A stretch of DNA of 56,731 nucleotides from an uncultured Candidatus Saccharibacteria bacterium (lineage in GTDB: Bacteria > Patescibacteriota > Minisyncoccia > Minisyncoccales > GWA2-38-27), in assembly GCA_964387825.1 (NCBI GenBank), contig CAYLWZ010000004.1, forward strand, positions 1 through 56,731, in the 5' to 3' direction. The notes below the pieces were generated by a model. The model was not told the DNA's origin, did not search any database, and saw nothing but the letters and a program-made list of their open reading frames with translations. This document shows, piece by piece, positions 1,755 to 56,731 of this stretch. Position numbers and translations under genes: made by a program. The first letter of the stretch is position 1, and the number at the start of each line of letters is the position of its first letter.

Positions 1755-1833
1755 AAATTGTTAGCAATTTAACAATGTAACAATGAGCGAGTTCGATAGC
1801 ACTGCGGGACAAGTAGCAGTAATTTAGCAATTT
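1755..1833. repeat. Dispersed AAATTGTT...AGCGAG...ATTTAGCA heptamer-based repeat, copy 1 of 3
   Basis: Similar to 40011-40091 and 45759-45845. Confidence 0.65.
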
Positions 1834-2657
1834 ATTTTCGTCGTCAGCTTTACCAAATTTTCCAGCAGACAGGCAACGGTCATAGGGCCAACTCCGCCGG
1901 GAACCGGGGTAATATAACTTGCTTTTTTGGAAACGCTTTTAAAATTGATATCGCCAGTCAATCCTTCTTCTTTTCGAGAAACACCGGCGTCAATTACCGC
2001 CGCTCCTCTTTTTACCATATCCCCGCTAATAAGATTCGGTTTGCCTACCCCTGAGATTATAATATCCGCTTTTTTGGTAAAACAGGAAATGTTTTTTGTG
2101 AATTCATCAACCACGGAAATAGTCGCTTTTTCTTTTAAAAGCCATAAAGCCAAAGGGCGCCCAACCAACCTGCCGGCTCCCACTAAAACTACGTTTTTTC
2201 CTTTAATTGATATCTTATATCTTGCTAAAAGATATCTTATGCCTTCGGCGATAGGAAAAGAGATAGGCGAATTTCCAGTATAAAATCTCCCTATGCTTGC
2301 CCCAGACAATACATCTATATCTTTTTCTGGAGGAATAATGTCCAAAAATTTTTGAGGGTTAAAATTTTTAGGCAATGGCAATTGAATAATAATTCCTTTT
2401 ATGCCAGCTTTCTTGGTAATTTTTTTTATTTCTCTTTCTAATTTTGCCGGCTTAATTTTTGACGGAAACTTAAACAGCTGAAAAATAATTCCTATTTTTC
2501 GGCAAGCTTTTTCCTTCTCCCGGACAAAAATTTTAGAAACCGGATTTTCTCCAACCAAAACCACGGCTAACTTTAATTTCAACCGTTTTCTTTTTATTTC
2601 TCTTCTAAGGCCTTCCAAAATTTCTTCAGACAACTTTTTACCGTCTAAAATTTTCAT
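1824..2657 (-). CDS. folD: Bifunctional methylene-THF dehydrogenase/cyclohydrolase
   Basis: KILDGK start, IIIQLPLP, KDID, VPGGVGPMTV motifs. Confidence 0.93.
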   Translation of the reverse strand: MKILDGKKLSEEILEGLRREIKRKRLKLKLAVVLVGENPVSKIFVREKEKACRKIGIIFQLFKFPSKIKPAKLEREIKKITKKAGIKGIIIQLPLPKNFNPQKFLDIIPPEKDIDVLSGASIGRFYTGNSPISFPIAEGIRYLLARYKISIKGKNVVLVGAGRLVGRPLALWLLKEKATISVVDEFTKNISCFTKKADIIISGVGKPNLISGDMVKRGAAVIDAGVSRKEEGLTGDINFKSVSKKASYITPVPGGVGPMTVACLLENLVKLTTKINC

Positions 2658-8267: not shown

Positions 8268-8305
8268 TTACTCTAATAATGTCCGATCGGACATTATTAG
8301 AGTAA
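8268..8305. repeat. Perfect 38-bp palindrome, TCTAATAATGTCCGATCGGACATTATTAGA family, copy 1 of 4
   Basis: TTACTCTAATAATGTCCGA|TCGGACATTATTAGAGTAA. Confidence 0.95.
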
Positions 8306-8320
8306 TATAAACGTTTGGTT

Positions 8321-9193
8321 TCAAATTTTAAATAATTTCTTCGCGTTTTGGGTAGTAGTTCTTGCTACCTCATCGTAGTCTATTTTTTTTATTTTAGCGA
8401 TATCTCGGACAATATATTTTACAAAAAGGGGTTCGTTACGCTCCTTTCCAGCCTGAGGCGGCGTCAGATAAGGAGAATCTGTTTCAATTAAAATCTTCTC
8501 AATCGGCGTTTTCTCAATGATTTTTTTTAGGTCCAACTTGTAAATTATCCCGTTGAAGCCCAGATAAAACCCCATATTTAAGTATTCTTTCGCTTGTTTC
8601 CATTTGCCGGTAAAACAATGAATTACTCCTTTTATTTTTTCAAATTCTTTTAATACTTCTATCAAATCGTCATGGGCTTTTCGGCAATGAAAAATTACCG
8701 GCAAATCCAATTCACTTGCTAATTTAAGTTGCTCTAAAAGCAATTCTTTTTGTTTTTTCTTAAACAATTCTAATTTCCCTTTTGCCTTTGGCTTATAATA
8801 ATAATCCAAACCAATTTCTCCAATCGCCACTACTTTTGACGATGATTGAGCCAAACTTTTATATTTTGAAGCGTGGAAATCCTCGCCTTCCGCCGTAAAA
8901 CCGCCTTCCTCCGGATCCGCTTTAATTTTAATCAATCCTGTCGCCAAATGAATGGGGTGAAGCCCGATTGCCGCGAAAACTCCTTTTTTATATTTTTCGG
9001 CAATTTCTACCGCTCTTTTGCTTGTTTCATATTTCGTGCCAACATTTATAAGCCAAAGATTTTCCGCCAGACATTGTTTGATAATCTCGCCTAAGTCAGA
9101 TTCAAACGCCTTAAAATTAAGATGGGCGTGGGTATCAACGCATTCAACTTTGCTCAGGGTTGACATTGAAATTGTCGAAGTGTCAATTAACAT
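8321..9193 (-). CDS. tatD: TatD-family DNase with N-terminal in-frame insertion
   Basis: DTHAHL, GLHP, GEIGLDY, FHCR, VIHCF, ETDSPYL; start overlaps metG stop. Confidence 0.92.
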   Translation of the reverse strand: MLIDTSTISMSTLSKVECVDTHAHLNFKAFESDLGEIIKQCLAENLWLINVGTKYETSKRAVEIAEKYKKGVFAAIGLHPIHLATGLIKIKADPEEGGFTAEGEDFHASKYKSLAQSSSKVVAIGEIGLDYYYKPKAKGKLELFKKKQKELLLEQLKLASELDLPVIFHCRKAHDDLIEVLKEFEKIKGVIHCFTGKWKQAKEYLNMGFYLGFNGIIYKLDLKKIIEKTPIEKILIETDSPYLTPPQAGKERNEPLFVKYIVRDIAKIKKIDYDEVARTTTQNAKKLFKI

Positions 9194-10658
9194 AAAGATT
9201 TAATCGAGGAAACAACGAGTTCCCTCTTTTTCTTTTTACAAACTTTCCCGTTCTTTTGTCTCTTTCTATTTCTTTTTTAATTCTTTCTGAAGTTTCGGGC
9301 AAAAACGGTTCCAGCATTTGAGCGATACTGTCTAAAGAAATCAGTAAATCATTAATGATTGACGGCTTATTTTTAACGTCTTCCCAAGGTCGGGTTTGTT
9401 CAATATATTTATCGCAAAAACTAATCAATCCCCAAATTGCTTTCAAAGATTCATTAAACTTAAATTCTTCTAAAGCTTTTTTATAATTCTCCAAAATTTT
9501 ATCAACCCTTTTTTGAAAATTGGGATTTGAAAATTTATTGAAAATTGAAAATTGAAAATTGAAAATTTTAGCAAGGGTTATTACTCTTGCCACCAAGTTT
9601 CCCAAACCATTTGCTAAATCGCTATTATATCTCTCCTCAAATTTTTTATAAGTAAAATCGCCGTCCTCGGCCGGAGGGATTTCTCTTAAGAGAAAATACC
9701 TTACAGCGTCTGTTCCATATTTTCCAACAAGCTCAAAAGGGTCAACAATATTTCCTAACGATTTTGATATTTTTTGCTTGTCAATATTGATAAATCCATG
9801 GACAAAAATTTTTTTTGGAAGTTCCAATCCAAGAGATAAAAGTATTGCCGGCCATATTAAAGCGTGAAATTTCAATATATCCTTGCCAACGCAATGGACA
9901 TCCGCCGGCCAATATTTTTTAAATTCTTTGCCATCGGGATACCCTAACGCTGAAACATAATTCAGAAGAGCGTCTGCCCAGACATAAATTGTTTGAGTTG
10001 AGTCGCCGGGAACCTCTATCCCCCATTTTAACCTTGACCTTGACCTTGAGAAACTAATATCTGTAAGTTTCCGTCTGATAAAACCCAGCGCTTCGTTTTT
10101 TCTTGTTTTAGGAATAATTTTTATTTTATCTTTTTCTAAAATTTTCTCTATTTTTCCCGCGTATTTTGAAAGACGAAAAAAATAATTTTCTTCCCTAACG
10201 ACTTCCGGCTTTTTTTTATGGATAGGACATTTGCCTTTAATTAACTCTCTTTCGGCAATAAAGGCCTCGCAGCCCGAACAATAAAGCCCCTCATATTTTT
10301 TTTTATAAATATCTCCTTTGTTTTCTATCTTCCTCCAAATCTTTTTCACTGTCGGCCAATGCCTCTTTTTATCAGTAGTTTTGATAAAATCGTCATTGGA
10401 GATATTTAAAATTTTCTCTAACTCTTTAAATCTGTTTGAAATTTTATCAACAAGCTCTTTCGGCGTTTTCCCTGCTTTCTTTGCCGCTTCGGCAATTTTT
10501 ATCCCGTGCTCATCAGTCCCGGTCAGAAAGAAAACATCATCGCCTATAATACGATGATAGCGGGCTAATACATCTGCCTGGACCGCTTCTAAAGCAAAGC
10601 CAATATGGGGGAAAGCATTAGCATAAGCTATGCTTGTTGTTATATAAAATTTCCTCAT
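9183..10658 (-). CDS. metG: Methionine--tRNA ligase (short form)
   Basis: YAN..PHIG, FLTGTDEHG, YVWADAL, GKDILKFH, KISKS. Confidence 0.96.
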   Translation of the reverse strand: MRKFYITTSIAYANAFPHIGFALEAVQADVLARYHRIIGDDVFFLTGTDEHGIKIAEAAKKAGKTPKELVDKISNRFKELEKILNISNDDFIKTTDKKRHWPTVKKIWRKIENKGDIYKKKYEGLYCSGCEAFIAERELIKGKCPIHKKKPEVVREENYFFRLSKYAGKIEKILEKDKIKIIPKTRKNEALGFIRRKLTDISFSRSRSRLKWGIEVPGDSTQTIYVWADALLNYVSALGYPDGKEFKKYWPADVHCVGKDILKFHALIWPAILLSLGLELPKKIFVHGFINIDKQKISKSLGNIVDPFELVGKYGTDAVRYFLLREIPPAEDGDFTYKKFEERYNSDLANGLGNLVARVITLAKIFNFQFSIFNKFSNPNFQKRVDKILENYKKALEEFKFNESLKAIWGLISFCDKYIEQTRPWEDVKNKPSIINDLLISLDSIAQMLEPFLPETSERIKKEIERDKRTGKFVKRKRGNSLFPRLNLYVN

Positions 10659-11689: not shown

Positions 11690-11697
11690 GATAAATA

Positions 11698-11826
11698 AAT
11701 TTTCAATTATCAATTTTCAATTATCAATAAATTTTCCAATTAACCAATTTTCAAACAAAGTCATAAAATTTGAATATTGAAAAATTGAGATTTTATTGAA
11801 AATTGGTCATTGAAAATTGAAAATTA
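11698..11826. repeat. Two-armed (TTTTCAA)n/(TTGAAAA)n element; inverted copy at 39468-39613
   Basis: Left arm of TTTTCAA/TTATCAA units, right arm of TTGAAAA units; both arms match the reverse complement of 39468-39613. Confidence 0.85.
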
Positions 11827-11855
11827 AAAACAAAAATAAATAATCAACTAAACAC

Positions 11856-27992: not shown

Positions 27993-28036
27993 GCCTTCTT
28001 CTAATAATGTCCGATCGGACATCATTAGAAGAAGGC
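27993..28036. repeat. 44-bp palindrome (one mismatch), TCTAATAATGTCCGATCGGACATTATTAGA family, copy 2 of 4
   Basis: GCCTTCTTCTAATAATGTCCGA|TCGGACATCATTAGAAGAAGGC. Confidence 0.95.
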
Positions 28037-30741: not shown

Positions 30742-30777
30742 TCCTCTAATAATGTCCGATCGGACATTATTAGAGGA
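30742..30777. repeat. Perfect 36-bp palindrome, copy 3 of 4 (3' of the PaaX-like gene)
   Basis: TCCTCTAATAATGTCCGA|TCGGACATTATTAGAGGA. Confidence 0.95.
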
Positions 30778-31378: not shown

Positions 31379-31414
31379 TCTTCTAATAATGTCCGATCGG
31401 ACATTATTAGAAGA
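31379..31414. repeat. Perfect 36-bp palindrome, copy 4 of 4 (18 nt upstream of the PaaX-like ATG)
   Basis: TCTTCTAATAATGTCCGA|TCGGACATTATTAGAAGA. Confidence 0.95.
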
Positions 31415-33241: not shown

Positions 33242-33316
33242 CCCGTTTTCAGAGATGCCCCGTTGGATCAAGGGACAGTCAAGGGACAGTCAAGGGACAG
33301 TCCCTCCCCTGTCCCT
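33242..33316. repeat. (AGGGACAGTCA)x3-CCTCCCCTGT repeat, copy 2 of 2
   Basis: 42 bp identical to 24836-24877; AGGGACAG/CTGTCCCT hairpin at 33293-33316. Confidence 0.9.
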
Positions 33317-33345
33317 CTGAAACCTCTGAGGCCTTCGAAAACCTC

Positions 33346-37831: not shown

Positions 37832-39613
<1,782 letters not shown>

Positions 39614-39618
39614 GGCGA

Positions 39619-39909
39619 TTATTCTATAATCGCTAAAATATCTTCTTGTTTTGCTATTAAATATTCTTTATCTCCGACTTTTATTTCGTTTGGACCGTAT
39701 TTGGTAAAAAGAACCTTTTCTCCTCTCCTTATGTCAATAGGGATAATTTTTCCAGAAGAGGTTTTGCGGCCCGGGCCTACGGCAATCACCCTGCCCTGCT
39801 CAGGCCTTTCTTTTTCAATCGTTTGGGGAAGAAAAATACCTGTTTTTGTTTTTTCTTCCTCTTTTATCGGCTCAATTAAAATATAATCTGATAATGGTTT
39901 AATGTTCAT
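39619..39909 (-). CDS. groS: Co-chaperonin GroES
   Basis: IKPL.DYILI, KTKTGIFLP, G.VIAVGPG, KYG..EIK, DILAII. Confidence 0.97.
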   Translation of the reverse strand: MNIKPLSDYILIEPIKEEEKTKTGIFLPQTIEKERPEQGRVIAVGPGRKTSSGKIIPIDIRRGEKVLFTKYGPNEIKVGDKEYLIAKQEDILAIIE

Positions 39910-40000: not shown

Positions 40001-40010
40001 GCCCAAAATT

Positions 40011-40091
40011 AAATTGTTAAATTGTTTCTATTAATCTAGCAATTCAGCAATAAGCGAACAAAGCGAGCGATAGCAATTTAGCAATTTAACA
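40011..40091. repeat. AAATTGTT...AGCGAG...ATTTAGCA repeat, copy 2 of 3
   Basis: Similar to 1755-1833 and 45759-45845. Confidence 0.7.
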
Positions 40092-43686: not shown

Positions 43687-43697
43687 TAATAATAAAT

Positions 43698-43849
43698 AAT
43701 TTTGAATTTTGAATTTTGAATCAATTTTGAATGATTTAATGATTTAATTTTTAGACAAAAAAGAATTAACTCCAAAAAAAACTTTTTTGTTTATTTCATT
43801 AAAAAATTCAAAAATTAAATCATTTATTCAAAATTCAAAATTCAAAATT
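43698..43849. repeat. Two-armed (TTTTGAA)n/(TTCAAAA)n element; copy at 53215-53352
   Basis: Both copies share the arms ATTTTGAATTTTGAATTT..AATCAATTT.GAATGAT and TTTATTCAAAATTCAAAATTCAAAATT. Confidence 0.85.
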
Positions 43850-43866
43850 ATTTATTATTAGGGAGG

Positions 43867-45758: not shown

Positions 45759-45845
45759 ATTGTTAAATTGTTAAACTAATGCAAATAATTTAACAATGAG
45801 CGAGCGTAGCAAGCAATAGCAATTTAGCAATTTAGCAATTTAATT
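45759..45845. repeat. AAATTGTT...AGCGAG...ATTTAGCA repeat, copy 3 of 3
   Basis: Similar to 1755-1833 and 40011-40091. Confidence 0.7.
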
Positions 45846-49367: not shown

Positions 49368-49387
49368 AATTTCTAATTTCTAATTTC

Positions 49388-49439
49388 CCCGCCCGCAACG
49401 CTTCGCAAACGAGCTTGCTCGCGTAGCGATGCGGGCGGG
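49388..49439. repeat. GC-rich branched palindromic element (family A), embedded in a (TTTCTAA)n run
   Basis: CCCGCCCGCAACGCTTCGCAAACGAGCTTGCTCGCGTAGCGATGCGGGCGGG. Confidence 0.92.
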
Positions 49440-49650: not shown

Positions 49651-49768
49651 ATGATAGATATTGGATATTAGATCTTAGTCTAAAAAACAAAAAAAACAGC
49701 TTAAAGCTGTTTTTTTATCATCTAATATCTAATATCTAATATCTAATATCTAATATCTAATATCTAAT
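49648..49768. repeat. TTAGATA-type left arm / (ATCTAAT)x7 right arm enclosing a bidirectional terminator
   Basis: Seven perfect units at 49720-49768; AAAAAAAACAGC-TTAAA-GCTGTTTTTTT hairpin in the middle, between convergent rpsR and recA. Confidence 0.85.
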
Positions 49769-50811
49769 TAGGACTGTTCAAGAATAGTTTTTTCAATCTT
49801 TTTCGTTACCTCGGGATTCTCTCCCAAAAATTTTTTAGCGCCCTCCATTCCTTGTCCTAATCTCGTATTTTCGTATTGAAACCAGCTTCCTGATTTTTTG
49901 ACAATCCCTTCTTTTAATCCGGCATTCAAAATGTCGGCCAGATAAGAAATCCCCTCATTATAATAAATATCAAATTCAGTAACTTTAAAAGGAGCGGCTA
50001 CTTTATTTTTAACTATTTTAGCCTTAATCCGGCTACCGATAATTTCATCGCCGTGTTTTATCTGAGCAATTCTTCTCAAGTTAATTCTCACCGAAGCGTA
50101 AAATTTTAAAGCCAAGCCGCCGGAAGTCACTTCGGGATTGCCAAAAATAACTCCGATTTTCATTCTGGTCTGGTTCAAAAATATCACAGCCGTTTTGGTT
50201 TTAGCGATAACCCCGGACAATTTTCTCAAAGCTGAAGACATCAACCTTGCCTGAAGTCCTATCCGAAAATCACCCATATCTCCGGTAATTTCCGCTTTTG
50301 GAGCCAAGGCGGCCACTGAATCAACCACTACAACATCAACATCTCCTGAATGCACCAACGTTTCTACGATTTGCAGCGCCTCTTCTCCTGAATCCGGTTG
50401 AGAGATTAAAAGGTCGTTAACATTAACCCCTATTCTTTTTGCGTAATCCGGGTCCAAAGCATGCTCAACGTCAATAAAAGCGGCTACGCCATTTTGTTTT
50501 TGGGCTTCGGCGCAAATATGCAGAGCCAAAGTGCTTTTTCCCGTGGATTCCGGGCCATAAATTTCAACCACTCGTCCGCGAGGAATTCCGCCCACTCCTA
50601 AAATTTTATCCAAAGAAATAGAGCCGGTTGGAATGACATCAACATCAACAGCGCCGATTTCGTCAAGTTTCATAATCGCCCCCTCTCCAAAACGCTGTTT
50701 AATTTCATCTATCGCTTCAGCTAAATCTTTTTTCTCCCCGCCTGCATCGCTATGCGAAGCATTGCGGGCAGGCCCGCCTGCTGGCGAATTTTTATCTTTT
50801 TTCTTAGCCAT
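49768..50811 (-). CDS. recA: Recombinase A
   Basis: [46 protein letters not shown]. Confidence 0.98.
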
Positions 50812-53141: not shown

Positions 53142-53147
53142 ACCTCT

Positions 53148-53176
53148 ATTATAAAAAAGATATCCAAAACATTCAA
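53148..53176 (-). promoter_or_regulatory. Sigma70 promoter 6 nt before ftsK ATG; likely leaderless transcript
   Basis: TTGAAT-17 nt-TATAAT-6 nt-ATG. Confidence 0.6.
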
Positions 53177-53214
53177 GATATAAAAAAAGAATCACGCCCT
53201 GGAGAACGTGATTC

Positions 53215-53352
53215 AATTTTGAATTTTGAATTTCTAATCAATTTAGAATGATAGAATTTTGAATGAATTAATAAACGGAATAAATCTGTTTCAAAATTGA
53301 GTTATTAGATTATTCAAAATTTATTCAAAATTCAAAATTCAAAATTCAAAAT
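53215..53352. repeat. Two-armed (TTTTGAA)n/(TTCAAAA)n element; copy of 43698-43849
   Basis: Shared arms, different centre. Confidence 0.85.
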
Positions 53353-56300
53353 TATTTTCTAAACCCTGTTCCCGCCGGTATTAACTTTCCAATAATAACG
53401 TTCTCTTTTAGTCCTCTTAATTTGTCTTCCTTGCCTTCAAGGCAGGTTTTAATCAAGACCCGAGAAGTTTCTTGAAAAGAAGCAGACGATAAAAATGAAT
53501 CTGTTGTAAGGGCAACCCGCGATATGCCCAATAAAATAATAGCGGCTTTTGCCGGATTTTTTTTCTCCTTCTTCAACTTCTCGTTTTCTTCAAGAAACCT
53601 TGCCTTCTCAATAACCTCTCCGATTATAAAAGGGCTATCTCCCGGTTCCTTTATTTTAACCCGCGAAAACATCTGACGAATTATTGTCTCAATATGCTTA
53701 TCGTGAATAAAGGCGCCCTGGGAAACATAAATTTTTTGAATCTCATTTAAAATATATTTTTGCGTTTCTTCTCTACGCCCTGTTTTAAAAATTTCTTTTA
53801 GGTCCAAACTCCCTTCGCAAAGCTGTTCTCCTTTTTTAACATCCTGCCCTTTTTTCACTAAAATTGCCGACTTGGAAGATATTTTATATTCAATAATGTC
53901 TCTTTTCTTCTTTGTTTTGGATTTTGACGCTTTGTTGTAAGCGTTTTCCCAGGATTGAGAATCTAAAATTTTCGGCTCTATTGTAATTATCCTTTCCTTT
54001 ACCGTTCCGTTTGATAGTCTCGTTTCTATAATGTCTAAAACTTTTCCTTCAACAAAAGAAATTTCTGCTTTCCCGCCAGGCGTTCTCGCCTCAAAAACTT
54101 CCTGCACCCTCGGAAGGCCGAGAGTAATATCTCCTCCGCCCACTACTCCGCCAGTATGAAAGGTTCTTAACGTAAGCTGGGTGCCCGGCTCGCCGATTGC
54201 CTGAGCAGCAACAATTCCCACCGCTTCTCCCAACTTAACTAATCTGTCATGGCCAAGGTCCCAGCCGTAACATTTTCGGCAAACACCTCGAACAGATTTA
54301 CAGGAGAGAGGAGACCTGGCGACAATCCTGTCAACCTCCTCTGCTTTTATCTTTCGCGCCACCGCCCAATCAATTATTTCGCCCTTTTTGACAATCACCT
54401 TATTTTTTGTTTTTTTTGATTTGACGTCCTCCAATACTATCCTGCCAATGGTCTTATAAATAAACTTTTGGCCTAATTCATCAGCGTCCTTTTTTAATAA
54501 CTCAACTCCTTTTTGGTCTCCGCAATCCTCTTCCGACACCACTACGTCATGAGCGACGTCAACAAGACGCCTGGTTAAATAACCAGCCGTTGAAGTGCGA
54601 AGAGCAGTATCCGCCGTTCCTTTCCGCGCCCCGTGAGTAGAAATAAAATATTCCAAGACATCAAACCCTTCTTTAAAAGAATGCTTTACCGGCATCTCAA
54701 TAATCTGGCCGGACGGATTGATAACCAGCCCTTTCATTCCGGTCATTTGGATTGGCTGGGTCCAAGAACCTCTGGCGCCGGAATCAATCATTGAAAATAC
54801 CGATCCCGTATCAGACAAAGTTTTCGGAACAAGTTTTTCTAATTTTGTCTTCGCTCTTGTCCAAACCTCAACCACCTTACTGCTTTTTTCCTCTTTAGAA
54901 AGAAGTCCTTTCTTGAGATAACTATTAATAGAATCAATTTCTCGCTCGGCGTTCTTCATAATTTCTTTTTTTTCTGGAGGAACTATCAAATCATCCATAC
55001 CCCAGGTTATGCCGGAAATGGTAGCCGATTCAAAACCTAAATCCTTAATTCTGTCCAATGTCTCTTCCGCTTCTTTCTGGCTATATTTATTAATAAACAA
55101 ACTAACTATCTTTTTTATTTTTTTCCCGTTAACCGTCTCGTTAAAAAATGGATAGCCGAGAGGTAAGGTTTCGTTAAACAAAATTCTTCCAACCGATGTT
55201 TCTATCACGCTTTGCATTCGCACCCGGATGCGGGCTCTCAAATTTATAAAACCGGATTCGTAGGCTAAAATCGCTTCTTCGGGACCGGAAAATACTCTTT
55301 TCCCGTTAATGTCCTGGCCAATAATTCTAGTTAGCCAATAACAACCAAGAACAATATCTTGAGTCGGGACGATAACCGGAGTGCCGCTCGCCGGTTTTAA
55401 TAAATTAAGAGAAGAGAGCATAAGTGTTTTTGCCTCTTCTTGCGCTTTCTCACTCAAAGGAAGATGGACTGCCATTTGGTCGCCGTCAAAATCGGCGTTG
55501 AACGCCTTACAAACCATCGGGTGTAAATGAATTGATTCCCCTTCCACTAAAAGCGGCTGAAAGGCCTGGATTCCCAAACGGTGAAGAGTCGGAGCCCTGT
55601 TTAAAAGAACAGCTTTATCTTTCACCACTTCTTCTAAAATCGCCCAAACATCGTCTGTCTGCCGCTCTATCAGCCTGCCAGCTCCTCGAACATTATAGGA
55701 AAGCTCTTTTTCTAAAATCTTTCTAATAACAAAAGGTTTAAATAATTCCAAAGCCATTTTTTTGGGAAGCCCACATTGGTGAAGCTTCAGTTTCGGCCCT
55801 ACGACAATTACCGACCTCCCTGAATAATCAACTCTCTTTCCTAAAAGATTTTGGCGAAATCTGCCTCGTTTTCCTTTAATAATATCGGCTAAAGATTTTA
55901 AGAGCCTCCTCCCGCCGGTAGTAGCAGTCGTTAAAATTCCTTTCCTCATACTGTTGTCAATTAAAGCGTCCACTGCCTCTTGAAGCATTCTTTTTTCATT
56001 TCTGACAATAACTTCCGGCGCCGCGATTTCCAGCAGATATTTCAGACGATTATTCCTATTAATTACTCTCCGATAAAGGTCGTTTAAATCAGAAGAAGCG
56101 TAACGGCCGCCGTCTAATTGAACCATCGGCCTTAAATCAGGAGGCAGAATCGGCAGGACTGTTAAAAACATCCATTCGGGCTTAATTCCAACGGCAAGCA
56201 TACCTTCTAACAACCTTAACCGCCTTAAAAGCTTCCGCCGAGTCATCGCTGTTTCTTTTTCCGCTTTTTTCTTTAGCGCCTTGATTTCTTTTTTTAAATC

Positions 56301-56731
56301 AAGTTGCTCAAAAATTTTCCTTAAAATTTCGGAACCGGTTCCCGCTTCAAAAGTTTCTCCATATTTTAAAGAATAATTATAATATTCCACTTCGGAGAGA
56401 ACCGCCAAGGGTTTAATTTTTAAAACATCTTCCTTTGCCCCGTCCCTTGCCTTTTTCAATTCGTCTAAACATGTTTTGAGCTTCTTTTTATCTTTAATTC
56501 CTGCCCGCAATGCTTTGCTATGCGAGGCAGGCGGGTTTAATCTTAAATCTTTAATCTTTATGTTATATTCTTTTTCAATCTCATCTCCAACTTTTTTCCT
56601 TGCGTCTTCGTCCACGGAAGTCACAATATAAGCGGCGAAATAAATAACTTTTTCCAACTGCTGCATGGGAATATCCAAAACCATTCCTATTCTTGAAGGA
56701 AGCCCTCGCAAAAACCAGATATGAGAAACAG
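53352..56731 (-). CDS. rpoC: RNA polymerase beta' subunit (5' end outside window)
   Basis: PVSHIWFLRG at the window edge, LLGKRVDYSGRSVI, NADFDGDQMAVH, AAQAIGEPGTQLT, GLKENVIIG. Confidence 0.99.
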   Translation of the reverse strand, partial: VSHIWFLRGLPSRIGMVLDIPMQQLEKVIYFAAYIVTSVDEDARKKVGDEIEKEYNIKIKDLRLNPPASHSKALRAGIKDKKKLKTCLDELKKARDGAKEDVLKIKPLAVLSEVEYYNYSLKYGETFEAGTGSEILRKIFEQLDLKKEIKALKKKAEKETAMTRRKLLRRLRLLEGMLAVGIKPEWMFLTVLPILPPDLRPMVQLDGGRYASSDLNDLYRRVINRNNRLKYLLEIAAPEVIVRNEKRMLQEAVDALIDNSMRKGILTTATTGGRRLLKSLADIIKGKRGRFRQNLLGKRVDYSGRSVIVVGPKLKLHQCGLPKKMALELFKPFVIRKILEKELSYNVRGAGRLIERQTDDVWAILEEVVKDKAVLLNRAPTLHRLGIQAFQPLLVEGESIHLHPMVCKAFNADFDGDQMAVHLPLSEKAQEEAKTLMLSSLNLLKPASGTPVIVPTQDIVLGCYWLTRIIGQDINGKRVFSGPEEAILAYESGFINLRARIRVRMQSVIETSVGRILFNETLPLGYPFFNETVNGKKIKKIVSLFINKYSQKEAEETLDRIKDLGFESATISGITWGMDDLIVPPEKKEIMKNAEREIDSINSYLKKGLLSKEEKSSKVVEVWTRAKTKLEKLVPKTLSDTGSVFSMIDSGARGSWTQPIQMTGMKGLVINPSGQIIEMPVKHSFKEGFDVLEYFISTHGARKGTADTALRTSTAGYLTRRLVDVAHDVVVSEEDCGDQKGVELLKKDADELGQKFIYKTIGRIVLEDVKSKKTKNKVIVKKGEIIDWAVARKIKAEEVDRIVARSPLSCKSVRGVCRKCYGWDLGHDRLVKLGEAVGIVAAQAIGEPGTQLTLRTFHTGGVVGGGDITLGLPRVQEVFEARTPGGKAEISFVEGKVLDIIETRLSNGTVKERIITIEPKILDSQSWENAYNKASKSKTKKKRDIIEYKISSKSAILVKKGQDVKKGEQLCEGSLDLKEIFKTGRREETQKYILNEIQKIYVSQGAFIHDKHIETIIRQMFSRVKIKEPGDSPFIIGEVIEKARFLEENEKLKKEKKNPAKAAIILLGISRVALTTDSFLSSASFQETSRVLIKTCLEGKEDKLRGLKENVIIGKLIPAGTGFRK

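What the first reader, a model, noticed from the sequence alone, without database searches (positions are those of the whole stretch)
11698..11826. Apparent microsatellites are dispersed two-armed elements with conserved arms
Seen: 11698-11826 and 39468-39613 are inverted copies. For example CAATTTTCAATTATCAATAAATTTTC(C/T)AATTAACCAATTTTCAAACAA and AAAAATTGAGATTTTATTGAAAATTG occur in both, with different centres. A second pair (43698-43849, 53215-53352) has the same design with TTTTGAA/TTCAAAA units. Inference: shared irregularities imply copying of a whole 130-150 bp unit rather than local slippage, i.e. a MITE-like element built from heptamers.
Basis: partly seen in the sequence, partly recalled or inferred. 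Interest (0 to 1): 0.7.

Follow-up and report, generated by a model that had tools for sequence, protein, structure and literature searches.

The report
Gene-less hairpin cassettes between housekeeping genes
The apparent microsatellites are copies that have lost their gene of a hairpin-shaped cassette which elsewhere carries a small four-helix-bundle gene, the same kind of element as the intervening sequences of 23S rRNA, here lodged between ordinary genes of an ultra-small (CPR) bacterium.

Summary
11697-11830 (A1) and 39466-39615 (A2) are inverted copies. Both quoted strings occur exactly twice, and the centres differ. Their similarity exceeds that of arrays rebuilt from the same units (0 of 2000 shuffles). 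The second pair (B1, B2) shares unit and design only; a copy relation is not shown.

Each element folds into a stem of about 60 bp and lies between housekeeping genes. A2 lies between groES and groEL.

Both A copies are collinear with the two arms that flank a PF05635/TIGR02436 ("23S rRNA intervening-sequence protein") gene in a metagenome contig, L118. The 375-nt ORF is replaced by 34-49 nt. Across 76 such genes the flanks are inverted, have a 7-base period and abut the ATG.

Orthologous spacers in relatives hold the A family, another family, or nothing (27 nt). Near-identical arms occur in many CPR classes.

Best reading: non-autonomous derivatives of an IVS-type cassette, copied as units while their arms also change by slippage. 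Cleavage of the stem by RNase III is inferred from rRNA IVSs. How the DNA moves is unknown. This is not a classical MITE: no target duplication and no transposase.

The parts
11692..11755 (-). A1, arm homologous to the 3' (post-stop) arm of the IVP cassette. Its inner end, ...CAATTTTCAAAC, corresponds to the stop-codon region of the cassette ORF.
   Evidence: rc(A1) positions 80-144 match the L118 3' arm at 54 of 65 positions, collinear with the other arm. Holds the 48-mer shared with A2.
11756..11789 (-). A1 centre (34 nt), at the place where the 375-nt IVP ORF sits in L118. On the minus strand it keeps ATGAC, a possible remnant of the ORF start.
   Evidence: Gap between the two arm alignments. 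Unrelated to the A2 centre.
11790..11828 (-). A1, arm homologous to the 5' (pre-ATG) arm of the IVP cassette.
   Evidence: rc(A1) positions 7-46 match the L118 5' arm at 36 of 39 positions. 40 of 42 identical to an arm in a Saccharibacteria MAG, L016. Holds the 26-mer shared with A2.
39465..39504 (+). A2, 5'-arm homologue. The cassette sense is the plus strand, antisense to groES-groEL.
   Evidence: 35 of 40 identical to the L118 5' arm.
39505..39553 (+). A2 centre (49 nt), unrelated to the A1 centre.
39554..39613 (+). A2, 3'-arm homologue.
   Evidence: 49 of 60 identical to the L118 3' arm. Lies between groEL (37832-39460, -) and groES (39619-39909, -).
43687..43860 (.). B1: two-armed AATTTTG/CAAAATT hairpin between the stop of the glucose-6-phosphate isomerase gene (43686) and tRNA-Leu (43867). 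Its centre holds a small A/T hairpin.
   Evidence: Inverted arms of 39 nt at 97% and 58 nt at 76%. Fold -40 kcal/mol, z -6.8. The orthologous spacer in L064 is 12 nt.
53212..53357 (.). B2: two-armed AATTTTG/CAAAATT hairpin in the 3' region of gene 53352-56711 (-). On the minus strand it is followed by a canonical terminator (53214-53189) and a promoter-like site (53176-53148).
49655..49768 (.). Same design with another unit: a TAGATAT arm, a terminator-like centre (49690-49716), and a perfect (ATCTAAT)7 arm.
9509..9570 (-). A single A-family arm inside the MetRS reading frame, translated as AKIFNFQFSIFNKFSNPNFQ.
   Evidence: 51 of 61 identical to the L118 3' arm, including GAAAATTGGGATTTGAAAATT. 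93% complementary to 11697-11740. Absent from the MetRS of relatives L150-L153.

Best explanation
A1 and A2, and probably B1, B2 and the other two-armed heptamer spacers, are non-autonomous, gene-less derivatives of an IVS-type hairpin cassette.

Shown here:
- The window copies keep both arms in order and have 34-49 nt in place of the ORF.
- Such elements come and go at orthologous spacers.
- One family can sit in different spacers in different genomes.
- Gene-bearing cassettes are almost always in the sense orientation of the host operon.

Inferred:
- The cassette is a selfish insert that is transcribed by read-through from the host operon.
- Its arms pair into a stem of about 60 bp, which host RNase III can cut, as it does for IVSs in 23S rRNA. 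The insert therefore does little harm between cistrons.
- After loss of the ORF the hairpin persists, and its arms keep changing by slippage of the 7-base unit.

Unknown: how the DNA is copied to new sites. No transposase, integrase or target duplication was found.
For: Identity of the element:
- Copy relation of A1 and A2.
- Collinearity of both with the arms of the IVP gene in L118: 36/39 and 54/65 for A1, 35/40 and 49/60 for A2.
- That gene matches TIGR02436 at E 2e-20.
- A second gene-bearing cassette with A-type outer arms is in L012 (PF05635, E 3e-17; 69-nt arm alignment that includes the inner end CAATTTTCAAACAAA).

Generality across IVP genes:
- In 76 IVP genes from metagenomes, the flanks are complementary in inverted but not in direct orientation (median score 15 vs 7.5, Wilcoxon p 4e-10).
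- Self-identity is 0.41-0.48 at period 7, against 0.28-0.33 at periods 5, 9 and 10.
- The arm ends a median of 4 nt before the ATG.

Deletion derivatives:
- The groES-groEL spacer of L064 and the M16-AI-2E spacer of L152 keep the junction ...AAACAAATTCAA|ATGACC... plus a few IVP codons.
- These two are 111/132 identical, centre included, although they lie in different spacers.

Turnover at orthologous sites:
- M16|AI-2E spacer: window 166 nt (A1), L150 167 nt (A-like), L152 203 nt (another family), L151 57 nt, L153 27 nt.
- tRNA-Leu|GPI: window 174 nt, L064 12 nt. TrpRS|RNase J: 99, 11 and 109 nt.

Spread:
- The 24-nt arm pattern hits 63 places in 62 stretches of species-representative genomes.
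- At least 51 of these are embedded in further units, in hosts of 31-51% G+C from many CPR classes.

Orientation:
- IVP genes have both neighbours on their own strand in 41 cases and both on the opposite strand in 2.

Link to true IVSs:
- The Coxiella 23S rRNA IVS has terminal inverted repeats and 2-3 tandem heptamers (GACAGAT) just before the ORF start, variable in number between strains.
- RNase III cuts it at the first repeat (PMC4990558).

Host signals:
- The window has only housekeeping genes.
- The host's own terminator and promoter lie next to B2, so the element is not needed for those roles there.
Against: - No transcript data exist, so RNase III cutting rests on analogy only. No rnc gene lies in the window.
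- All five relatives carry a two-armed element at the groES-groEL spacer. That could mean selection for a hairpin there rather than selfish persistence.
- Within the A family, an element's own arms pair no better than chimeric arm pairs (-25.0 vs -25.3 kcal/mol; 3175 of 5000 permutations do as well). There is thus no copy-by-copy compensatory signal for a selected stem.
- The excess stability of the sense strand in IVP cassettes is weak (45 vs 29, p 0.03).
- None of 40 IVP loci checked lies in an rRNA gene, so identity with rRNA IVSs is by design and gene family, not by location.
- For the B pair, and for the other unit families in the window, no gene-bearing counterpart was found.
Confidence: 0.62

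Rival explanations
1. Host-selected intercistronic hairpins. The stems are kept because they terminate, process or stabilise operon transcripts (for example, to uncouple groES from groEL). Their arms are homogenised within a genome by gene conversion. The link with IVP genes is secondary.
For: - All five related genomes have a 135-184-nt two-armed element at the groES-groEL spacer, although the unit family differs.
- Elements begin right at stop codons and end 10-20 nt before start codons.
- The outward-facing arms read TTGAAA-N17/18-GAAAAT, a weak sigma-70-like match.
- This rival can coexist with the main explanation, as domestication.
Against: - Other orthologous spacers are empty in some relatives (11, 12 and 27 nt) with the same flanking genes.
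- A1 and A2 lie in opposite orientation to transcription.
- B2 sits beside a canonical terminator and promoter of the host.
- The same arms flank a gene in other genomes.
- Near-identical arms occur across CPR classes with 31-51% G+C.
- There is no copy-specific compensation between arms.
Confidence: 0.2
2. A classical MITE: a deletion derivative of an insertion sequence, moved in trans by a transposase that recognises the terminal inverted repeats.
For: Inverted arms, small size, no coding capacity, many dispersed copies, and presence/absence at orthologous sites.
Against: - No direct repeat flanks A1, A2, B1 or B2 (read directly).
- The related gene-bearing element encodes a four-helix-bundle protein, not a transposase.
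- No transposase lies in the window.
- The arms are 45-70 nt of tandem units rather than short terminal repeats.
Confidence: 0.08
3. Independent local microsatellites. Each spacer grew its own heptamer array by slippage, and the two-armed form is a by-product of palindromic expansion.
For: - Unit numbers vary between copies.
- There is a perfect (ATCTAAT)7 run.
- The B pair is no more alike than idealised arrays of its unit.
- Heptamer number varies between Coxiella strains.
Against: - A1 and A2 share irregular units in the same order (0 of 2000 unit shuffles).
- A 42-47-nt irregular arm segment recurs nearly unchanged in distant genomes.
- The L064 and L152 elements match through their non-repetitive centre.
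Confidence: 0.05
4. Arrays of binding sites for a DNA-binding regulator. AATTTTC is half of the CodY box AATTTTCWGAAAATT.
For: The literature search turned up the CodY motif resemblance.
Against: - The half-sites are 30-50 nt apart, not juxtaposed.
- The same architecture is built from unrelated units (AAATCCG, ACAAATT, ATATCTA) in the same spacer of relatives.
- The arms also occur inside reading frames.
Confidence: 0.03

Closest known systems
Intervening sequences (IVS) of 23S rRNA with an S23p / 23S_rRNA_IVP ORF (Leptospira, Coxiella burnetii) and their ORF-less forms (Salmonella)
   Same: - Terminal inverted repeats form a long stem around a loop that may hold a PF05635 four-helix-bundle ORF.
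- Tandem heptamers lie directly upstream of the ORF start, and their number varies between strains.
- The ORF decays or is lost.
- Distribution is sporadic and suggests horizontal spread.
- The ORF is in the sense orientation of the host transcript (PMC4990558).
   Different: - The elements lie between, and as single arms within, protein-coding genes, not in helix 25 or 45 of 23S rRNA. None of 40 IVP loci checked is in rRNA.
- There are many copies per genome region.
- The arms are 45-70 nt built almost wholly of 7-base units, against a 28-bp stem in Coxiella.
- RNase III excision was not tested.
[quoted passage not shown]
   Same: Short, non-coding, with inverted ends, dispersed, variable in presence at orthologous sites, and related to a larger gene-bearing element by internal deletion.
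   Different: No target-site duplication. The partner element encodes no known transposase. The arms are tandem arrays.
REPINs (REP doublets forming hairpins) moved by RAYT transposases
   Same: Two inverted repeat arms with a less conserved spacer form a long hairpin in intergenic DNA. No target duplication.
   Different: No RAYT gene was found in the window. An HUH-like fragment beside an arm in L009 gave no Pfam match. REPIN families are confined to one lineage, whereas these arms recur across classes.
Tandem heptamer repeats of other bacteria: TAACTGA repeats of Beggiatoaceae, Cyanobacteria and Bacteroidetes (PMC4679880), and the STRR heptamers of heterocystous cyanobacteria (own knowledge)
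   Same: 7-base units, mostly intergenic, ending a few bases before start codons that lack a Shine-Dalgarno site, sometimes inside ORFs, and a phylogenetic spread that suggests transfer.
   Different: Those are direct arrays (one indirect case among 170). They are not paired inverted arms, and no link to an IVP gene has been reported.
Rickettsia palindromic elements (own knowledge)
   Same: Palindromic repeats that are also found in frame inside essential genes.
   Different: Here only one arm lies in the ORF. It replaces a variable loop of MetRS with almost no change in length.

Membership tests
IVS-type cassette (23S rRNA intervening sequence kind) | Terminal inverted repeats that pair into a long stem | tested here: met
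   Stems of about 50-60 pairs, -29 to -40 kcal/mol, z -3.2 to -6.8. Arm duplexes of IVP cassettes average -36 kcal/mol.
IVS-type cassette (23S rRNA intervening sequence kind) | The loop can carry a PF05635 / TIGR02436 four-helix-bundle ORF | tested here: met
   Not in the window copies. But L118 and L012 carry the ORF between homologous arms.
IVS-type cassette (23S rRNA intervening sequence kind) | Tandem heptamers next to the ORF start (as in Coxiella) | tested here: met
   Period-7 signal, and the arm ends a median of 4 nt before the ATG in 76 loci. Coxiella data.
IVS-type cassette (23S rRNA intervening sequence kind) | Inserted in a 23S rRNA helix | tested here: not met
   The window copies lie between protein-coding or tRNA genes. 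No rRNA was found in 40 IVP loci.
IVS-type cassette (23S rRNA intervening sequence kind) | Excised from the transcript by RNase III | not testable with these tools
   Needs RNA end-mapping or an in vitro cleavage assay.
MITE | Target-site duplication flanking the element | tested here: not met
   The flanks of A1 (AATAA / AAAAA), A2 (TCGCC / TAATT), B1 and B2 show no direct repeat.
MITE | A cognate autonomous element that encodes a transposase | tested here: not met
   The gene-bearing relative encodes IVP only. No transposase in the window.
MITE | Dispersed copies, with presence or absence varying at orthologous sites | tested here: met
REPIN / RAYT | A RAYT (Y1 HUH transposase) gene flanked by the same repeats in the genome | tested here: inconclusive
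   None in the 56.7-kb window. The rest of the genome was not available. The L009 fragment with PNHIHG gave no Pfam match.
Slippage microsatellite | Copies no more alike than arrays of the same unit | tested here: not met
   Not met for the A pair: 0 of 2000 unit shuffles reach the observed score. The feature is met for the B pair.

The most novel reading that the evidence does not exclude
Intervening sequences are not a peculiarity of rRNA. On this reading they are one face of a widespread class of selfish cassette: heptamer-built inverted arms around an Avd-like four-helix-bundle gene. The cassette inserts into any transcribed spacer, is neutralised at the RNA level by RNase III, and leaves gene-less hairpins that fill the spacers of streamlined CPR genomes. 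It would move by a route that needs no transposase. Possible routes are hairpin-directed recombination, or RNA-templated copying with a host reverse transcriptase, by analogy with Avd in diversity-generating retroelements.
Probability: 0.3. Interest if true: 0.85.

Novelty: new variant of a known kind. Interest (0 to 1): 0.66.

Why it matters
The function of the 23S rRNA IVS protein family, and the origin of IVSs, have been open since the early 1990s. Hypotheses of transposition or mobility are cited in PMC4990558.

Here the same design (inverted arms, heptamers at the ORF start, a PF05635 gene, and gene-less decay products) is found in bulk outside rRNA. Orthologous sites are occupied, differently occupied or empty.

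That gives many natural insertion events to compare. It also makes several questions directly testable: what the arms are for, whether the protein binds them, and how the element moves.

On the practical side, these hairpins:
- account for much of the non-coding DNA in this genome stretch;
- break assemblies (a JGI contig ends inside A2);
- can be mistaken for microsatellites or regulatory sites;
- sit inside conserved operons such as groES-groEL, where they may affect expression.

No paper in the searchable library pairs heptamer repeats with CPR taxa or quotes these arm strings.

Tried and rejected
- Rfam at gathering threshold finds only tmRNA and tRNA-Leu in the window. No family covers the elements.
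- Literature string searches for the arm sequences found nothing relevant. The CodY half-site resemblance was set aside because the same architecture is built from unrelated units.
- A terminator role was considered. No terminator-like site lies in A1. B2 lies next to a separate canonical terminator and promoter. Only the ATATCTA element has a terminator-like centre.
- A promoter role was considered. The arms give weak TTGAAA-N17/18-GAAAAT matches. These follow automatically from the unit sequence and cannot be judged without transcript data.
- I tested for compensatory co-evolution of the two arms within the A family, comparing own-arm with chimeric duplex energies. There was no signal.
- The strand asymmetry test (G-U vs A-C) on IVP cassettes gave only a weak preference for the sense strand. 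In the window it is confounded by GC skew.
- My first score for inverted arms around IVP genes did not beat a cross-locus control, because arms of different loci are homologous to one another. I replaced it with an inverted-versus-direct comparison.
- I tried to link B1 and B2 to elements of relatives or to an IVP-bearing cassette. The similarity was only at the level of the unit.
- The MetRS tract was first taken for an insertion. Alignment to Aquifex MetRS shows it replaces a variable loop with a difference of about 2 residues.
- A RAYT-like fragment beside an arm in L009 gave no Pfam match.

Full report
**What is in the sequence**

The window is 56.7 kb of a low-G+C (about 36%) genome with tightly packed genes. 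Its GroEL is 81-89% identical to proteins from Parcubacteria / Nealsonbacteria-type CPR bacteria. Every ORF I scanned is a housekeeping gene: aminoacyl-tRNA synthetases, GroES/GroEL, SmpB, IF3, L20, S6, SSB, FtsK, RNase J and others. There is no transposase, reverse transcriptase or four-helix-bundle gene.

- A1 (11697-11830) lies between the stop of an M16 peptidase gene and the start (11689) of an AI-2E transporter gene, both on the minus strand.
- A2 (39466-39615) lies between groES and groEL, also on the minus strand.
- B1 (43687-43860) lies between a glucose-6-phosphate isomerase gene and tRNA-Leu.
- B2 (53212-53357) lies after gene 53352-56711 and before FtsK.

**The observation**

A1 aligned with the reverse complement of A2 scores 145, against 70 in direct orientation. 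Both arms are near-identical, including their irregular units, and the centres are unrelated.

Rebuilding A2 from its own units in random order gives 80.8 +/- 14.5, and none of 2000 trials reaches 145. Arm by arm, 12 and 6 of 3000 trials reach the observed score. So the A pair is related by copying.

The B pair is different. B1 vs B2 (87) is no better than B1 vs an idealised (AATTTTG)n two-armed array (86), and unit shuffles often do as well. B1 and B2 share unit and design, but a copy relation is not shown.

All four fold into imperfect stems of 50-60 pairs on either strand, with z from -3.2 to -6.8.

The same design with other units occurs elsewhere in the window. One example has a TAGATAT arm and an (ATCTAAT)7 arm around a terminator-like centre, at 49655-49768.

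**Spread beyond the window**

I searched a 24-nt degenerate pattern from the irregular part of the arm against one genome per species. It hit 63 places in 62 stretches. At least 51 of these are embedded in further AATTnnC units. Five look like chance hits inside Bacteroidota genes.

The hosts are MAGs labelled Saccharibacteria, Shapiro-, Ames-, Woese-, Moran-, Sung-, Azam-, Nealson-, Staskawicz-, Yanofsky-, Kerfeld- and Dojkabacteria, plus some with non-CPR labels. Their G+C is 31-51%. Some of the non-CPR labels are doubtful: L017 is nearly identical to a Shapirobacteria locus, and a 31% G+C contig is labelled Lysobacteraceae.

The window's arm is 40/42 identical to one in a Saccharibacteria MAG. 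About half of the hits have a second, inverted arm 10-160 nt away.

Several single arms lie inside reading frames, always with the AATTTTC strand as sense. That is the only strand without stop codons, and it reads ...IFNFQFSIFNKFS....

**The link to a gene-bearing cassette**

In L012 (a Moranbacteria MAG) an A-type arm leads into a 120-codon ORF that matches PF05635, 23S_rRNA_IVP (E 3e-17). It is followed by the complementary arm and then a bAvd-like gene. The window's arm aligns to the L012 arm over 69 nt, including the inner end CAATTTTCAAACAAA. Two more IVP genes among the fetched loci also sit between heptamer-built inverted arms of other unit types.

I then fetched 80 metagenome loci that encode relatives of this protein. 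For 76 with enough flank:
- Upstream and downstream flanks are complementary in inverted orientation far more than in direct orientation (median 15 vs 7.5; 39 vs 3 loci at score 15 or above; Wilcoxon p 4e-10).
- Self-identity peaks at period 7 (0.41-0.48, against 0.28-0.33 at periods 5, 9 and 10).
- The arm ends a median of 4 nt before the ATG.

One of these loci, L118, has A-family arms. The reverse complement of A1 matches its 5' arm at 36/39 and its 3' arm at 54/65, in order. A2 matches at 35/40 and 49/60. The L118 ORF matches TIGR02436, 'four helix bundle protein' (E 2e-20).

Hence A1 and A2 have the structure of this cassette with the 375-nt ORF replaced by 34 and 49 nt. By this alignment A1 is in the sense orientation of its host genes and A2 is antisense.

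**Deletion derivatives and turnover**

Relatives with conserved gene order were fetched.

The groES-groEL spacer holds a two-armed element of 135-184 nt in all five genomes, but the unit family differs:
- AATTTTC in the window.
- ACAAATT/CAAATGA in L064.
- AAATCCG in L066.
- AATTTTC opposite GGATATT in L067.
- AAATTCC in L069.

The L066 arms are those that flank IVP genes in L079 and L090. The L064 element keeps the junction ...AAACAAATTCAA|ATGACCAAAAT..., that is, the arm, the start codon and the first codons of an IVP gene.

At the finding's own site, the M16|AI-2E spacer, the lengths are:
- 166 nt in the window (A1).
- 167 nt in L150 (A-like).
- 203 nt in L152 (another family, again with an ATGACC remnant and a nested G+C-rich insert).
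- 57 nt in L151 (no hairpin).
- 27 nt in L153.

tRNA-Leu|GPI is 174 nt in the window and 12 nt in L064. TrpRS|RNase J is 99, 11 and 109 nt in the window, L064 and L069.

The L064 groES|groEL element and the L152 M16|AI-2E element are 111/132 identical through the non-repetitive centre. So one element family occupies different spacers in different genomes.

**How it probably works**

Shown: the anatomy, the relation to a gene-bearing form, turnover at orthologous sites, and a strong orientation rule. IVP genes have both neighbours on their own strand in 41 cases and on the opposite strand in 2. That fits a promoter-less insert expressed by read-through.

Known from the literature:
- IVSs of 23S rRNA are stem-loops with terminal inverted repeats that are cut out by RNase III.
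- The Coxiella IVS carries an S23p ORF of this family.
- It has two or three tandem GACAGAT heptamers just before the start codon, and RNase III cuts at the first repeat.
- Its ORF is decaying (PMC4990558).
- IVP ORFs occur in CPR rRNA insertions (PMC11270868), and between genes of cas operons (PMC3936711).

Inferred: the window's elements are transcribed within host operons and fold into stems long enough for RNase III, which makes an insert between cistrons nearly harmless. Gene-less copies persist as relics.

Slippage acts on top of this, as shown by varying unit numbers and a perfect (ATCTAAT)7 run.

The way the DNA is copied is unknown. I saw no target duplication and no recombinase.

**Tests that did not help the functional reading**

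- Within the A family an element's own arms pair no better than arms swapped between elements. The complementarity is therefore a family property, as expected for copies of a master.
- Sense-strand stems of IVP cassettes are only slightly more stable than antisense ones (p 0.03).
- None of 40 IVP loci checked lies in rRNA.
- B2 is followed by a canonical terminator and a TTGAAT-17-TATAAT site, so the host does not rely on the element for those signals there.

**Rivals**

A host-selected intercistronic hairpin is the main rival, and it is compatible with domestication. Its best support is the universal occupancy of the groES-groEL spacer. Against it stand the empty orthologous sites, the opposite orientations of A1 and A2, and the gene-bearing relatives.

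A classical MITE fails on target duplication and transposase. Pure slippage is refuted for A and remains possible for the B pair's mutual similarity. A CodY-like operator array is unlikely, because unrelated units build the same architecture.

**Comparison and novelty**

The closest known system is the 23S rRNA IVS. Shared features are the stem, the heptamers at the ORF start, the PF05635 ORF, ORF decay and the sense orientation. The defining location in rRNA is not met, and RNase III excision is untested.

I therefore file this as a new variant of a known kind, not as a member. It is an IVS-type cassette family living in mRNA spacers of CPR and other bacteria, with abundant gene-less derivatives.

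Searches of the held library found no paper that describes it. That library lacks most subscription journals.

**Verdict**

It is right about copying and about the enclosed gene. It is not right about a whole-unit copy, the B pair, or MITE status in the strict sense.
- Interest is 0.66.

Noticed in passing
window 9509-9570 (inside MetRS ORF 9183-10658, minus strand): A single A-family arm lies in frame in MetRS (AKIFNFQFSIFNKFSNPNFQ). It replaces a variable loop of the anticodon-binding domain with about 2 residues' change in length relative to Aquifex MetRS. It is absent from the MetRS of four syntenic relatives and present in L035. ArgRS in L037 and several membrane proteins (L034, L058) carry similar in-frame arms.
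   Followed up: partly
window 8272-8301, 28000-28029, 30745-30774, 31382-31411: Four intergenic copies of a near-perfect 30-nt palindrome, TCTAATAATGTCCGATCGGACATTATTAGA. This is a separate REP-like family.
   Followed up: no
window 25749-25801, 49387-49439; related 50737-50772, 56500-56535: A G+C-rich repeat of about 52 nt that forms a hairpin (CCCGCCCGCAACGCTTCGCAAGCGAGCTTGCTCGCGTAGCGATGCGGGCGGG). One copy abuts the 5' end of tmRNA (25799-26206). Another follows an (AATTTCT)3 run. Similar G+C-rich mini-inserts are nested inside heptamer arms in L018, L043, L052 and L152.
   Followed up: no
window 1765-1834, 40009-40091, 45759-45845; L064 6539-6664: An octamer-based family (AATTGTTA opposite TAGCAATT, pairing through G-U on the plus strand) with a conserved core, AACAATGAGCGAGCG. 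It occupies a different spacer in relative L064.
   Followed up: partly
window 24831-24891 and 33266-33323: Two 96%-identical copies of (GGGACAGTCAA)3 followed by CCCTCCCCTGT. This is a G+C-rich element with an 11-base unit that is partly self-complementary.
   Followed up: no
window 53142-53216: The listed TTG start of the FtsK ORF (53216) overlaps a strong terminator (53214-53189) and a promoter-like site (53176-53148). The real start is probably the ATG near 53142.
   Followed up: partly
L001 (JGI 3300031351 contig Ga0307427_1005376), position 1-35: A public contig that carries the identical groEL ends 35 nt upstream of the gene, inside element A2. The repeats break short-read assemblies.
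   Followed up: no
window 25471-25719: An 82-residue stand-alone GIY-YIG protein gene lies between smpB and the tmRNA gene.
   Followed up: no
L107 1450-2000; L086 1160-1500: Gene-bearing and gene-less units occur in tandem. In L107 an IVP gene is followed by a second left arm, an ATGACCAAAAT... ORF remnant and then the right arm. In L086 a gene-less two-armed unit sits directly upstream of an IVP gene.
   Followed up: partly
L081 1960-2053, L087 1956-2049: Two IVP cassettes lie about 100 nt upstream of a tRNA-Sec gene in G+C-richer contigs. This suggests the cassette family is not confined to CPR bacteria.
   Followed up: no
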